Below, one piece after another: positions 18,989 through 31,143 of a stretch of DNA of 64,000 bases (positions are counted from its first letter, which is position 1; each line of letters begins with the position of its first letter). Under the pieces are notes generated by a model, which was given only the letters and a program-made list of their open reading frames with translations, ran no database searches and had not been told where the DNA came from. Location: positions 300,628 to 364,627 of the forward strand of contig JACPAV010000002.1 of the NCBI GenBank assembly GCA_016180645.1, in the 5' to 3' direction. The translations under genes and the position numbers were made by a program. Source of the stretch: Nitrospirota bacterium. GTDB lineage: Bacteria > JACPQY01.

Positions 18989-19063
18989 TCAGGAGGCGGA
19001 CGAACGGAGGGCCTTGGCGCCCGGAAAGATGGCGCGTTGGCCAAGGAGTTCCTCGATGCGGAG
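18989..19063 (-). pseudogene. eno: Displaced duplicate 3' end of enolase (att site of the island)
   Basis: [24 protein letters not shown] versus the eno end [24 protein letters not shown]; 19044-19063 is identical to 29918-29937. Confidence 0.9.
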
Positions 19064-19125
19064 ATGAGGCACCCCGCGTGAACCCAACCTTTGCCTGTTC
19101 GGTACTGTAACAATACAATGGCGCC

Positions 19126-20256
19126 ATGATTTACCTTGACCACAACGCCACAACGCCCGTGTTGCCGGAGGTACTTGAGACGATGATGCCCTACTTCACC
19201 AAGGAATGGGGCAACCCCTCCAGCAGCTACAAATTCGGATCCAAATTGAAAACCGTGATCGAGCAGGCGCGGGAGCAGGTAGCTCAACTGATAGGCGCGC
19301 ACCCAATGGAAATCATCTTCACCTCGTGCGCCACGGAGAGCAACAACGCGGCGATCCATGCAGTGCTCAAAGCCAATCCGGGCAAGCGGCACATCATCAC
19401 GTCATCTGTGGAACATTCGTCGGTGCTCAACTACTGCAAGGCACTGGAGAAGGATGGTTATCGCGTCACGTATCTGCCGGTGGATCGCGAAGGGCTGATG
19501 AAGCCGGCGGATTTGGAGACTGCGATCACCGGCGAAACGGCCATCGTCTCATTGATGTGGGCGAACAACGAGACGGGGGTGCTGTATCCGGTGAAAGAAA
19601 TCGCGGAGATTTGCCGGTCCCGCGGGGTATTCTTCCACTGTGATGCGGTGCAGGCAGCGGGCAAAGTGGAAATCGACGCACGAAAAGCGCCCTTAGACTT
19701 CCTTTCACTGACAGGCCACAAATTTCATGCGCCGAAGGGCATCGGGGCGTTGTACATCCGCCGAAAGGCGCCGTTTTCACCTCTCATCGTTGGTGGGCAT
19801 CAGGAGCGACGTCTGCGCGGGGGAACCGAGAGCGTCCCGTTGATCGTTGGGATGGGCAAGGCGGCGGAGTTGGTGGGCAAGAGTCTGCCCGCCTACGACA
19901 AGAGAGTCGGGCCGTTGCGTGATGCGTTGGAGGCCGGGATCCTTGGGTCAATTCCTTACGGGGAATTGAATGGGCATAAGACCTTCCGTTTGGCGAATAC
20001 CACCAACCTCACATTCAGAGGAATCGAATCGGAGGCTTTGCTTTTGCTGCTCGATCAGGAGGGAATATGTGCCTCATCGGGATCGGCCTGCCTTGCCGGG
20101 TCGGACGAACCTTCGCACGTCGTCAAGGCCATGAAGCCCGATTCCTCCGCTTCCCGTCAGATGATCCGATTTTCGCTGGCCCCTTCGAATACGTCCGATG
20201 AGGTATCGGCAGCCGTCGGGGCCGTGCTCCACGCTGTCACCGATTTGCGGGGCTGA
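19126..20256 (+). CDS. dndA: Cysteine desulfurase (IscS/NifS class; probable DndA)
   Basis: YLDHNATTP, GNPSS, NNETG, DAVQ, PLP lysine in TGHKFHAPKG, catalytic SSGSAC; lies inside the island with dndCD. Confidence 0.8.
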   Translation: MIYLDHNATTPVLPEVLETMMPYFTKEWGNPSSSYKFGSKLKTVIEQAREQVAQLIGAHPMEIIFTSCATESNNAAIHAVLKANPGKRHIITSSVEHSSVLNYCKALEKDGYRVTYLPVDREGLMKPADLETAITGETAIVSLMWANNETGVLYPVKEIAEICRSRGVFFHCDAVQAAGKVEIDARKAPLDFLSLTGHKFHAPKGIGALYIRRKAPFSPLIVGGHQERRLRGGTESVPLIVGMGKAAELVGKSLPAYDKRVGPLRDALEAGILGSIPYGELNGHKTFRLANTTNLTFRGIESEALLLLLDQEGICASSGSACLAGSDEPSHVVKAMKPDSSASRQMIRFSLAPSNTSDEVSAAVGAVLHAVTDLRG

Positions 20257-20266
20257 CTTCTCTCTC

Positions 20267-20599
20267 ATGAAACTTCCGGCGGACACGGTGATCGCCCCCG
20301 AGAAGGTGACGCGATACCTGCTTGTACAGTATGCCCGTGGCGACAAGTCAAAGTTTCTGGCGGCGGCAGGCTATTCTCTCGAAGACCCTGACAGGCTCCT
20401 CCACGATCTCCGCGCGCAGATTCTCCCGTTGGAGGCAACGGCCGTGGAATCGAATCAGTTCGGGGAATATTTTGAAATCCGAGGCACGCTGACCGGCCCC
20501 AACGGCGTAACGTTGGCTATCCGAACCATCTGGCTCAAGGAACGTTTGTCCGGCGCCACGAAATTCGTTACACTAATTCCAGACAGGCGGAAAAAATGA
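20267..20599 (+). CDS. DUF6883-like putative toxin (copy 2)
   Basis: MKLPADTVIAPEKVTRYLL...DKSKFLAAAGY...FVTLIPD; paralog of 5597-5923. Confidence 0.7.
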   Translation: MKLPADTVIAPEKVTRYLLVQYARGDKSKFLAAAGYSLEDPDRLLHDLRAQILPLEATAVESNQFGEYFEIRGTLTGPNGVTLAIRTIWLKERLSGATKFVTLIPDRRKK

Positions 20600-29347: not shown

Positions 29348-29429
29348 GGGCGACAGTAAGCGACCCCCAGCGAGCTTGTCAAGCCGGGCCTGCCACAGGG
29401 GAGGAGGTCGGCAAAGTCAGGGAAGAATC

Positions 29430-29686
29430 GTCATTCCCGCGGAGGCGGGAATCCAGAGCTTCTTGATTTCACTGGACCCCCGCCTTCGCGGGGGTGACGG
29501 ATAGGGTCGGGATTCCATTCTCATGATTCCCGATTGTTCATGGGCAGTTGGCATGGAACCTGCCGTGACCGTGGCCACAGGGGTACGTTAGGGGTTGCGA
29601 GGAAAGAACCTACTCAATTTTCCATCTTCTCGTCATGCCCGCGGAGGCGGGCCTCCAGTCTGGATTCCCGTCTTCACGGGAATGAC
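29430..29686. repeat. Two GTCATTCCCGC..GCGGGAATCCAG / CTGGATTCCCG..GGGAATGAC palindromic repeats
   Basis: Copies at 29430-29498 and 29632-29686, each a long imperfect hairpin. Confidence 0.8.
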
Positions 29687-29862
29687 GGAGCGAGGGACTT
29701 GTTCACTTTGTTTCCACGCGACCCCTTGCCTCCGTCTCACCCCCTTTTCCCGGCTTGGCATGTTGGCTTGGAAACGAGTTGTCAGAGTTGAGTGGGGCGT
29801 AGGGAATTCAGCATCCAACGGCGTCTCGCTTACGCCGCCGACTATGCTGACCGTGCGTGGAG

Positions 29863-31143
29863 TTAGGAAACGGACAAGCGGAAGACCTTGGCACCCGGGA
29901 ACACCGCGCGTTTGCCGAGGAGTTCCTCGATGCGGAGGAGACGGTTGTACTTGGCCAGGCGCTCGGAGCGGGAGAGGGATCCCGTCTTGATCTGGCCCGC
30001 GTTCGTGGCTACGGCGAAATCCGCGATGAACGTGTCCTCCGTCTCGCCCGACCGGTGTGAGATGACCGTCCCGTAGTTCGCTTTCTTCGCCTTCCGAATC
30101 GTCTCCAGGGTCTCGGTGACCGATCCAATCTGGTTGAGTTTGATGAGAATCGCGTTCGCCACGTTCTCTTCAATTCCCTGCTCAAGTCTCCCGGGGTCGG
30201 TCACGAATATGTCATCACCCACGATTTGGATCTTCTTCCCCAGACGGGCCGTGACTTCCGCCCAGCCCTCCCAGTCGTCCTCCGCCAGGGGATCTTCGAG
30301 GGAAACGATGGGGTATTTGGACGCAAGCTCCTCGTAGAGTGTAACCATTTCCGTTGCCTTGAGTTTCCTTCCCTCGCACTCATAAAGACCGTTTTCGCAA
30401 AACTCACTTGCCGCCGCATCCAGGGCCAGAAAAACGTCTTTTCCCGGCTCGTAGCCCGCGCCACGAATCGCCTGCATGAGAAGTTCGAGAGCCTCCTGAT
30501 GCGAGCCCAGGTTCGGCGCGAAGCCGCCCTCGTCGCCCACCGCCGTGGAGTGTTGGCCGTCGTGCAGAAGCCGTTTCAATTCCTGGAAGACCTCGGCTCC
30601 CATTCGAAGCGCCTCCCGAAAAGTCGGCGCGCCGGCCGGAACGATCATGAACTCCTGGAAATCGAGATTGTTGTTGGCATGCGCCCCACCGTTGATCACG
30701 TTCATCATGGGGACGGGCAACGTCCGGGTCTGTTTGCCTCCGATATGCTCGAACAATTCCTTCCCCGCGTGATCGGCGCAGGCGCGGGCGAACGCCATGG
30801 AGACGGCGAGGATGGAGTTGGCCCCGAGTACCTTCTTCTGCGGGGTGCCGTCCAGCTTCAGGAGGTCCTTGTCGAGTGCCTTCTGGTCAGGAAAGTTCCT
30901 GTTTCGAATGTGGGGGGCGATCTTCCCGCTGACATTTCCGACAGCTTGGAGAACCCCCTTGCCCTTGAAGCGGACCGGGTCCCCATCCCGAAGTTCCAAC
31001 GCCTCGTGCGTGCCGGTGGAGGCACCCGAGGGCACCGCCGCACGACCAAAGGCCTTCGAAGAGAGAACCACATCGGCCTCGATTGTCGGGAGACCCCGGG
31101 AATCGAGGATCTCGCGCGCCCTAGTCTCGCTTATCTTCGGCAT
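29863..31143 (-). CDS. eno: Enolase
   Basis: [52 protein letters not shown] at 31143. Confidence 0.98.

What the first reader, a model, noticed from the sequence alone, without database searches (positions are those of the whole stretch)
18989..29937. Island integrated into the 3' end of enolase, replacing the enzyme's C-terminus
Seen: 18989-19063 (minus) encodes [24 protein letters not shown], a same-length diverged copy of the last 25 eno codons (29863-29937, [24 protein letters not shown]). A 20-bp identical core, aggagttcctcgatgcggag, sits at 19044-19063 and 29918-29937, and similarity stops at its edge. Established: integrative elements that target gene 3' ends carry a replacement tail in attP; tRNA/tmRNA genes are the usual targets. 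Inference: eno is the attB, the original tail was displaced next to sqdB, and the current enolase tail was supplied by the element. This fixes the island boundaries at about 10.9 kb.
Basis: partly seen in the sequence, partly recalled or inferred. Interest (0 to 1): 0.8.

Follow-up and report, generated by a model that had tools for sequence, protein, structure and literature searches.

The report
Defence island inserted into enolase's tail
A 10.9-kb block of foreign DNA-sulfur-modification (dnd) defence genes sits in the last 25 codons of the enolase gene and is flanked by two diverged copies of that tail, but it has no integrase, so it is a new example of a known kind of insertion, not a new mechanism.

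Summary
A 73-nt direct repeat (82% identical, 20-nt identical block at the eno-proximal end) lies at 18991-19063 and 29865-29937. The left copy is an orphan enolase tail 25 nt from the stop of the sqdB-like gene. The right copy is the real end of the single-copy eno.

The 10.8 kb between them is a foreign dnd module: dndA/nifS, two toxin-antitoxin-like pairs, PF20553 + GHKL ATPase, a DndE-ATPase fusion, dndD and dndC. DndC is 65-83% identical to copies in 80 genomes of many phyla, whereas the host's eno is at most 65% identical to all but one known enolase. The island's tetranucleotide usage is in the 96th percentile for the genome.

- No recombinase or remnant is in the island or on its 370-kb contig.
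- None of 80 related modules lies near eno.
- The 20-mer "core" also occurs in 13 unrelated eno genes, so it is not diagnostic of an att site.
- The one close relative's tail sides 3:1 with the current tail, not the orphan.
- No empty site or circle was seen.

Best reading: a decayed, CIME-like or e14/icd-like insertion by one crossover in the eno tail. Interest is modest.

The parts
17809..18963 (+). sqdB-like NAD-dependent sugar epimerase/dehydratase, the left chromosomal flank; it converges on the orphan tail with a 25-nt spacer
   Evidence: Pfam Epimerase 1.7e-24. NCBIfam UDP-sulfoquinovose synthase 1.3e-110, 370 bits, below the 575-bit cut-off.
18989..19063 (-). orphan enolase tail: 24 codons plus stop, with no enolase body upstream
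19044..19063 (.). left copy of the 20-nt identical block
19064..19125 (+). left end of the island, with a promoter-like site (TTGCCT-17-TACAAT, 19091-19119) ahead of dndA/nifS
   Evidence: consensus match only; no similarity to eno.
19126..20256 (+). cysteine desulfurase, the DndA/NifS-type partner of the module
   Evidence: PADLOC DndA 3e-145. NCBIfam NifS 521.5 bits and DndA 387 bits, both just under their cut-offs. A copy of at least 300 aa lies beyond dndC in 45 of 80 related loci, 42 of them on the opposite strand.
20198..20838 (+). DUF6883 (20198-20599, start uncertain) and DUF4926 (20596-20838), a small two-gene pair
   Evidence: Pfam 1.3e-14 and 1.3e-11. The pair or one member is next to nifS in 13 of 80 related loci.
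20974..21443 (+). small ORF (20974-21162, possible antitoxin, no family) and a ParE-family toxin (21165-21443)
   Evidence: Pfam ParE_toxin 1.5e-12. The antitoxin role is inferred from position. No relE/parE match in any of the 80 related loci.
21751..21794 (.). perfect 22-nt tandem duplication in the gene-poor stretch 21444-21852
   Evidence: D10.
21853..22851 (-). PF20553 (Methyltransf_35) protein, lowest-GC part of the island
   Evidence: Pfam 9.6e-103; GC 0.52-0.55.
22851..24323 (-). GHKL-type ATPase (start uncertain)
   Evidence: Pfam HATPase_c_3 9.9e-9; no PADLOC family.
24220..25749 (-). DndE domain fused to a HerA/FtsK-like P-loop ATPase (start probably near 25701)
   Evidence: Pfam DndE 1.4e-6, AAA_10, HerA_C; PADLOC mad8 2.5e-17.
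25983..28046 (-). DndD (SMC-like ATPase)
   Evidence: PADLOC DndD 3.1e-60; NCBIfam DndD 162 bits, below its cut-off.
28049..29347 (-). DndC (PAPS-reductase-fold sulfurtransferase)
   Evidence: NCBIfam TIGR03183 375 bits, above the 290-bit cut-off; PADLOC DndC 3.1e-125.
29348..29862 (.). 515-nt spacer between dndC and the eno stop, holding three REP-like palindromes (29428-29457, 29630-29687)
   Evidence: Per-run contigs break at 29459-29473.
29863..29937 (-). current enolase tail (right repeat copy), including the 20-nt block at 29918-29937
29863..31143 (-). enolase, 426 aa, single copy in the genome
   Evidence: Pfam Enolase_C 9.1e-127 and Enolase_N 4.6e-49; one match in G000.

Best explanation
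A horizontally acquired dnd (DNA phosphorothioation) module of about 10.8 kb entered the chromosome by a single reciprocal crossover inside the last 25 codons of eno. The incoming DNA carried its own enolase-like tail, which now finishes the enzyme. The remnant of the other tail was left as a 75-nt orphan next to the sqdB-like gene.

The most likely agent was a site-specific recombinase belonging to a larger integrative element. Its recombination genes have since been lost, or they acted in trans. On that reading the island is now a stranded, CIME-like element.

Shown: the repeat, its geometry, the foreign origin of the cargo, and the absence of any recombinase.

Inferred: the crossover, its position in the 20-nt block, the integrase, and which tail is the host's original.
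For: - The repeat is real and unique in the genome.
- The truncated copy starts at the shared block, while the other copy continues into eno.
- The island ends coincide with the ends of a conserved module, dndC ... dndA/nifS. That module recurs in 80 genomes of many phyla with DndC 65-83% identical. The host's eno has one relative at 90% and otherwise at most 65%.
- The island's tetranucleotide distance is 0.177, the 96th percentile of 781 equal-size windows. The two flanks score 0.11 and 0.10.
- The two tails have equal length and both keep a stop. pN/pS is about 0.38 (6.5 synonymous differences over 19.7 sites, 6.5 nonsynonymous over 52.3). This fits two alleles that diverged as coding sequence and does not fit an in-situ duplicate that decayed.
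- Island and flanks have equal contig depth in three runs, and the junction-spanning contigs have no mismatch.
- Precedents: e14 in icd leaves a 163-bp pseudo-icd and supplies the gene's end (PMC6379469, passages). CIMEs of 1.2-13 kb keep attL/attR but have lost the integrase, at the 3' ends of fda, rpsI and rpmG (PMC5704250 and PMC7563491, passages).
Against: - No tyrosine or serine recombinase is in the island or among the 52 window ORFs scanned.
- No recombinase match at E up to 1 in 16 stop-to-stop frames from the island's non-coding stretches.
- All 16 PF00589 and 2 PF00239 matches in the genome lie on other contigs.
- Four classical islands in the same genome look different. They sit at tRNA-Thr, -Gly, -Gln and -Met, with 39-49-nt repeats 94-100% identical. 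Three have a tyrosine recombinase gene within about 200 nt of a repeat, and the fourth has recombinase genes about 220 and 1,770 nt from its repeats.
- 0 of 80 related modules have eno or an eno tail within 10 kb.
- 0 integrases among 131 flank ORFs of 30 related modules.
- The 20-mer also occurs in 13 distant eno genes, so its identity need not mark a crossover site.
- P0006's tail agrees with the current tail at 3 differing sites and with the orphan at 1.
- No empty-site or circle joint is among the 15 joints shown; 87 more were not shown.
Confidence: 0.55

Rival explanations
1. No integrase was ever involved. DNA from a related donor, in which the module already lay just downstream of eno, was taken up. 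It was built in by host recombination: a homologous crossover in eno, or a Campbell-type crossover on the short tail homology, plus an illegitimate join at 19063/19064. The donor's eno tail came along and the recipient's tail was left behind.
For: - No recombinase or remnant is present.
- The module family as a whole sits between housekeeping genes with no integrase within 4.5 kb: 0 among 131 ORFs of 30 loci.
- The incoming tail is of this lineage's type, with the same length and the G.RA.FPGAK..R.S.S pattern, as in P0006. Enolases about 64% identical have different tails.
- The 20-mer's identity can be explained by coding conservation.
- Contigs 80-95% alike to dndC, at higher depth, occur in the same runs, so possible donors of related modules co-occur (table 3).
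Against: - A mismatch-free 20-nt block exactly at the truncated end has probability 0.0098 if the 13 mismatches fell at random over 73 nt. This control ignores coding constraint.
- No mosaic pattern is visible in eno against P0006.
- A donor with the island next to eno is itself unexplained, and none was found.
Confidence: 0.25
2. The polarity is reversed. The current tail is the host's own and the orphan is the foreign copy, because the crossover lay at the 3' edge of the homology near the stop codon and not in the 20-nt block.
For: P0006 (90% identical enolase) shares K, V and F with the current tail and only S with the orphan at the 6 differing residues. Three REP-like palindromes of a family with 12 copies in the host genome lie in the spacer just downstream of the current tail, which therefore looks host-like.
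Against: Identity near the stop codons is limited to blocks of 4-5 nt, against 20 nt at the other end. Six sites are too few to decide. The REP-like elements may have spread in after the insertion. P0006 itself could carry an element-supplied tail, and its contig is only 1,937 bp.
Confidence: 0.2
3. An in-situ duplication of the eno tail arose at insertion (a long target duplication) or by tandem duplication, and the unused copy then decayed.
For: Direct repeats flank the insert.
Against: The copies differ at 13 of 73 nt, yet there is no indel, both keep a stop at the same codon, and pN/pS is about 0.38. All the differences lie outside the 20-nt block.
Confidence: 0.05
4. Assembly artefact: the contig is chimeric at the REP-like repeat, so the island is not really next to eno.
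For: Per-run contigs of all four runs stop at 29459-29473, inside a repeat whose summed depth is far above the genome's.
Against: - In X2 one contig reaches 29496 and the next starts at 29473, a 24-nt overlap.
- Depth is equal on both sides: 42.5 and 41.0 in X1, 10.2 and 11.2 in X2, 9.23 and 9.93 in X3.
- A chance misjoin would have to land on the one gene whose tail is duplicated at the island's other end.
- The runs may be the assembly's own source, so they are not independent.
Confidence: 0.03

Closest known systems
e14 element / phage 21 integrated in icd of Escherichia coli
   Same: Integration into the 3' end of a central-metabolism gene. The element supplies a diverged replacement for the end of the gene. 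A truncated pseudo-copy of the original end (163 bp for icd) is left at the far side (PMC6379469, passages).
   Different: e14 encodes its own integrase and excises. Here no recombinase exists, the duplicated piece is 75 nt, and excision was not seen.
CIMEs (cis-mobilizable elements) and ICESt3-family elements at the 3' end of fda, rpsI and rpmG in streptococci
   Same: Cargo-carrying islands of 1.2-13 kb that have lost their integration and transfer genes but keep flanking att repeats at the 3' end of a housekeeping gene. fda, like eno, is glycolytic (PMC5704250 and PMC7563491, passages).
   Different: CIMEs are recognised by kinship or tandem arrangement with an integrase-bearing ICE or IME that uses the same site. 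No such partner was found for eno. The host is from a very sparsely sampled lineage, not Bacillota.
Dnd DNA-phosphorothioation systems (DndABCDE, with DndFGH or PbeABCD restriction partners)
   Same: DndA-type desulfurase, DndC, DndD and a DndE domain are all present.
   Different: DndE is fused to a HerA/FtsK-like ATPase. There is no DndB in this copy, and no PADLOC match to DndFGH, PbeABD or Ssp partners. PF20553 + GHKL occupy the slot where 10 of 11 sampled relatives carry a DndB-like gene.
Classical tRNA-targeting integrative islands, four in this same genome
   Same: Flanking direct repeats that duplicate the 3' part of the target gene.
   Different: Those have 39-49-nt repeats at 94-100% identity. 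Three have a tyrosine recombinase gene within about 200 nt of a repeat; the fourth, at tRNA-Gly, has recombinase genes about 220 and 1,770 nt from its repeats. The eno island has an 82% repeat and no recombinase.

Membership tests
Integrative element that replaces the 3' end of its target gene (e14/icd type) | Direct repeats at both ends that duplicate the 3' end of the target gene, with the far copy truncated | tested here: met
   73 nt, 82% identical; the left copy has no eno body.
Integrative element that replaces the 3' end of its target gene (e14/icd type) | The target reading frame is kept intact through the junction | tested here: met
   426-aa enolase with full Pfam domains and a tail the same length as in its 90% relative.
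Integrative element that replaces the 3' end of its target gene (e14/icd type) | The element carries an integrase (tyrosine or serine recombinase) gene | tested here: not met
   None in the island genes, in 16 non-coding frames, or on contig C31.
Integrative element that replaces the 3' end of its target gene (e14/icd type) | Excised circle or empty attB observed, or an empty site in relatives | tested here: inconclusive
   No such joint among the 15 shown, with 87 not shown; contigs drop rare variants. The one same-family genome lacks eno, sqdB, comEC and dndC matches at 84% completeness.
CIME (cis-mobilizable element) | Flanked by attL/attR-like repeats but devoid of integration and transfer genes | tested here: met
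   definition from PMC5704250 (passage).
CIME (cis-mobilizable element) | Derived from, or in tandem with, an ICE or IME whose integrase uses the same site | tested here: not met
   No eno-associated integrase element was found: 0 viral contigs carry the core, none of the 27 metagenome loci with the core shows an orphan eno tail or a second copy, and 0 of 80 related modules are near eno. Sampling of this lineage is very thin.
Dnd phosphorothioation modification system | DndC above the curated cut-off, plus DndD, a DndE domain and a cysteine desulfurase in one cluster | tested here: met
   TIGR03183 375 bits against a 290-bit cut-off. DndD, DndE and DndA match but fall below the NCBIfam cut-offs or are at Pfam domain level only.
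Dnd phosphorothioation modification system | DndB regulator and a known restriction partner (DndFGH, PbeABCD, SspE) | tested here: not met
   No PADLOC or Pfam match among the island ORFs, except PbeC models that overlap DndD and a 0.00097 DndH hit on the ATPase.
Dnd phosphorothioation modification system | Phosphorothioate actually present in the DNA | not testable with these tools
   Needs chemistry (iodine cleavage or LC-MS) on the organism's DNA.

The most novel reading that the evidence does not exclude
This widespread dndC-dndD-dndE/ATPase-...-dndA module may travel with no recombinase of its own. It is found in 80 genomes of many phyla with no integrase within 4.5 kb. On this reading, a circularised or linear copy that has picked up a few dozen bases of a conserved housekeeping gene's 3' end is built in by the host's own recombination on that short homology. 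The eno island would be the first copy caught with the footprint still readable. That would give a general route by which integrase-less defence islands enter core-gene neighbourhoods.
Probability: 0.12. Interest if true: 0.6.

Novelty: new member of a known kind. Interest (0 to 1): 0.3.

Why it matters
Most defence islands sit between housekeeping genes with no trace of how they arrived. Here the insertion left a readable scar: a second, diverged enolase tail. That fixes both ends of the island to the base and shows that the entry event rebuilt the end of an essential glycolytic gene.

Enolase has not turned up as a target in the literature I could search (listings only; subscription journals are not covered). 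If relatives of this thinly sampled lineage are sequenced, the locus gives a clean test of whether such islands enter by a lost integrase or by host recombination.

Beyond that it is an ordinary case of a known phenomenon. The enzyme is intact and nothing suggests the island is still mobile.

Tried and rejected
- Empty site in relatives. The 40 genomes offered as relatives include only one of the same family. That genome, 84% complete, gave no eno, only 26-28% epimerase paralogues for the sqdB-like gene, and no comEC or dndC. No conclusion.
- A search for a cut sqdB-like fragment on the 1,937-bp contig of the 90% relative returned 6 short proteins, the best 54% identical apart from one 65-aa fragment 70% identical over 23% of the query. 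None is a near relative. No conclusion.
- Read and contig evidence for excision. No joint links 19063 to 29938 or 29917 to 19064 among the 15 joints shown; 87 were not shown. Contigs cannot show rare forms.
- The exact 20-mer in viral contigs: 0.
- The exact 20-mer in metagenome contigs: 27 loci. Of these, 13 are ordinary eno genes (55-57% identical, 72% on one short piece) and 14 are unrelated sequence. None is an orphan tail, none is from a relative, and each locus has one match.
- An eno tail near related dnd modules. tblastn with word size 2 and blastn-short gave only chance-level hits (E at least 0.17) in 80 loci.
- Flanking repeats at related modules. Of 39 loci with both flanks, only L095 has a long one (111 nt, 92%). 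It is not a tRNA, tmRNA or Rfam family.
- RNA genes in 17000-32000: 0 Rfam matches at E up to 0.1. No tRNA in the region.
- Structure of the orphan region as RNA: z = -0.34.
- Plasmid and phage carriers of this DndC subfamily: the best identities listed are 48% (plasmids) and 43% (phages), and all 2,492 and 20 matches are under 60%.
- I considered that dndA/nifS might be a native housekeeping gene. I rejected this because a copy of at least 300 aa lies beyond dndC, on the opposite strand, in 42 of 80 related loci, at 54-80% identity.
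Full report
**1. The observation**

The sequence is as described.
- The minus strand of 18989-19063 reads [24 protein letters not shown].
- The minus strand of 29863-29937 is the end of a 426-aa enolase with both Pfam enolase domains.
- The repeat finder gives one two-copy family, 18991-19063 and 29865-29937: 73 nt, 82% identical, 10,874 nt apart.
- The 20-mer at 19044-19063 and 29918-29937 is identical. No further copy with up to 3 mismatches is in the window, and 0 of 100 shuffles gave two matches.
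- The whole 4.7-Mb genome holds just these two copies with up to 2 mismatches.
- Beyond 19063 the left copy has no likeness to eno, while the right copy continues into the gene.
- The genome holds one eno.
- The orphan's stop is 25 nt from the stop of a convergent sqdB-like epimerase gene, 17809-18963.

**2. What lies between the repeats**

Reading left to right:
- a DndA/NifS-type cysteine desulfurase (19126-20256, +)
- a DUF6883/DUF4926 pair
- a small ORF plus a ParE-family toxin
- a gene-poor stretch with a perfect 22-nt tandem duplication
- then, on the minus strand: a PF20553 protein, a GHKL ATPase, a DndE domain fused to a HerA/FtsK-like ATPase, DndD and DndC

No tRNA or Rfam family is in 17000-32000.

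**3. The cargo is foreign and the boundaries fit**

DndC has relatives at 65-83% identity in 80 genomes whose record titles span Acidobacteriota, Nitrospirota, Verrucomicrobiota, Planctomycetota, Deltaproteobacteria and others. The host's enolase, by contrast, has a single relative at 90% and nothing else above 65% among 5.8 billion proteins.

In those genomes the module keeps the same frame:
- dndC first, then dndD (48 of 80 loci) and the DndE-ATPase (46 of 80)
- a variable slot
- a desulfurase copy of at least 300 aa on the opposite strand (42 of 80; many loci are cut by contig ends)

So dndC and dndA are the two ends of the travelling unit. In the window they lie 515 nt and 62 nt inside the two repeat copies.

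Composition agrees. The island's tetranucleotide distance from the genome is 0.177, the 96th percentile of 781 equal-size windows, against 0.11 and 0.10 for the flanks. PF20553 + GHKL have GC 0.53 against 0.61 for the genome.

The flanks are core genes: dnaK/dnaJ/grpE, uvrC, comEC and the sqdB-like gene on one side, eno and purine synthesis genes on the other.

**4. It is not an artefact**

Per-run contigs from four runs of one study were laid on the window. These runs may include the assembly's own source, so they are not independent.
- The left junction is bridged with 0 mismatches in X1, X2 and X3.
- 29473-30542 spans the right repeat.
- The only break, at 29459-29473, lies in a REP-like palindrome. 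That palindrome has 12 copies with up to 3 mismatches in the genome, three of them in this spacer.
- Depth is equal on the two sides of the break and across island and flanks. I therefore see no large island-free subpopulation.

**5. How it got there**

The geometry is a full gene with one tail, then the insert, then a truncated second tail that begins at the shared block. A single crossover between the chromosome and incoming DNA that carried an enolase-like tail would produce this.

The two tails differ at 13 nt, all outside the 20-nt block. They have no indel and both keep a stop. There are 6.5 synonymous differences over 19.7 sites and 6.5 nonsynonymous over 52.3, giving pN/pS about 0.38. 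They look like two alleles that diverged while coding. They do not look like a duplicate that decayed in place.

Both share length and pattern with the 90% relative's tail and not with tails of enolases about 64% identical. So the incoming tail came from this lineage's own kind of enolase.

The textbook parallel is e14 in icd (PMC6379469, passages).

**6. What does not fit a simple integrative element**

- There is no recombinase among the island genes or among the 52 window ORFs scanned.
- There is none at E up to 1 in 16 frames from the island's non-coding parts.
- There is none on the 370-kb contig. The genome's 16 tyrosine and 2 serine recombinase matches are all elsewhere.
- The same genome has four classical islands, at tRNA-Thr, -Gly, -Gln and -Met. 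Their repeats are 39-49 nt and 94-100% identical. Three have a tyrosine recombinase gene within about 200 nt of a repeat, and the tRNA-Gly island has recombinase genes about 220 and 1,770 nt from its repeats. So the contrast is internal to this genome.
- None of the 80 related modules has eno or an eno tail within 10 kb.
- None of 131 flank ORFs from 30 of them is an integrase. One is a DDE transposase and one is like a recombination directionality factor. I scanned 131 of the 168 ORFs listed.
- The 20-mer is no private att core. It occurs verbatim in 13 enolase genes only about 55% identical in protein. Against random placement of the mismatches, a clean 20-nt end block has P = 0.0098. Coding constraint on LRIEELL weakens that figure.

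**7. Which tail is the original?**

Topology says the orphan is, if the crossover lay in the shared block. The only outside witness, P0006, agrees with the current tail at 3 of the 6 differing residues, with the orphan at 1 and with neither at 2. That is too little to overturn the topology but enough to leave the point open.

A crossover near the stop codon would reverse the polarity. So would a P0006 that itself carries an element-borne tail.

**8. Verdict**

The finding is real and the island's limits are right. The mechanism is best described as a decayed, CIME-like or e14/icd-like insertion into the eno tail (CIME definition: PMC5704250 and PMC7563491, passages). A serious rival is that host recombination, not an integrase, built it in.

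I found no paper naming eno as an attachment site. This rests on the listings only, and the library lacks most subscription journals.

It is a new target gene for a known kind of event, carrying a dnd variant. Interest is modest.

Noticed in passing
window 21853-24323; related loci L038-L104: The slot between the DndE-ATPase gene and dndA is variable. Here, and in 10 of 80 related loci, it holds PF20553 + a GHKL ATPase. In 10 of 11 other loci sampled it holds a DndB-like (PF14072) gene plus a small unknown ORF. One locus has a lipase-like gene plus an RNase T-like gene. PF20553 + GHKL may stand in for DndB or be a phosphorothioate-linked effector pair. PADLOC has no model for either.
   Followed up: partly
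window 24220-25749 (-): DndE is fused to a HerA/FtsK-like P-loop ATPase of about 500 aa. The fusion is kept in 46 of 80 related loci.
   Followed up: partly
window 21751-21794: A perfect tandem duplication of a 22-nt unit lies in the 400-nt gene-poor stretch between the ParE gene and the PF20553 gene, where GC starts to fall. It may be a scar of cargo exchange. Unexplained.
   Followed up: no
window 29428-29457 and 29630-29687: REP-like palindromes: 12 copies with up to 3 mismatches in the genome on 10 contigs. Summed depth in the metagenome runs is very high, and all per-run contigs break here.
   Followed up: partly
L095:2172-2282 and L095:11184-11294: A related dnd module in a Terriglobia MAG is flanked by a 111-nt direct repeat (92% identical). 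The repeat lies 493 nt before dndC and 179 nt beyond dndA, a geometry like the window's. An ORF like a recombination directionality factor is at L095:12274-13068. The repeat is not a tRNA, tmRNA or Rfam family, and lies in intergenic DNA.
   Followed up: partly
G000 contigs C11:9286-15189, C15:2560-46980, C44:107992-115981, C32:100973-117837: Four classical integrative islands sit at tRNA-Thr, tRNA-Gly, tRNA-Gln and tRNA-Met. Their repeats are 39-49 nt and near-identical. Three have a tyrosine recombinase gene within about 200 nt of a repeat; at tRNA-Gly, where there are three repeat copies (a tandem of two elements), recombinase genes lie about 220 and 1,770 nt from repeats.
   Followed up: partly
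whole genome G000: The host is from a very thinly sampled lineage. Of the 40 genomes offered as relatives, one is in the same family and the rest are related only at domain level. Its enolase has one relative at 90% and otherwise at most 65%.
   Followed up: no
window 19439-19586 and 28112-29006: The same four runs hold variant contigs 80-95% alike to dndA and dndC, at depths above the host's. Other community members therefore carry related modules (table 3).
   Followed up: no
window 20198-20838: The DUF6883/DUF4926 pair travels with dndA in 13 of 80 related loci (10 with both genes) and looks like a small toxin-antitoxin-type addiction pair. In several loci partial dndA copies flank it, which hints at repeated rearrangement at this end.
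   Followed up: no
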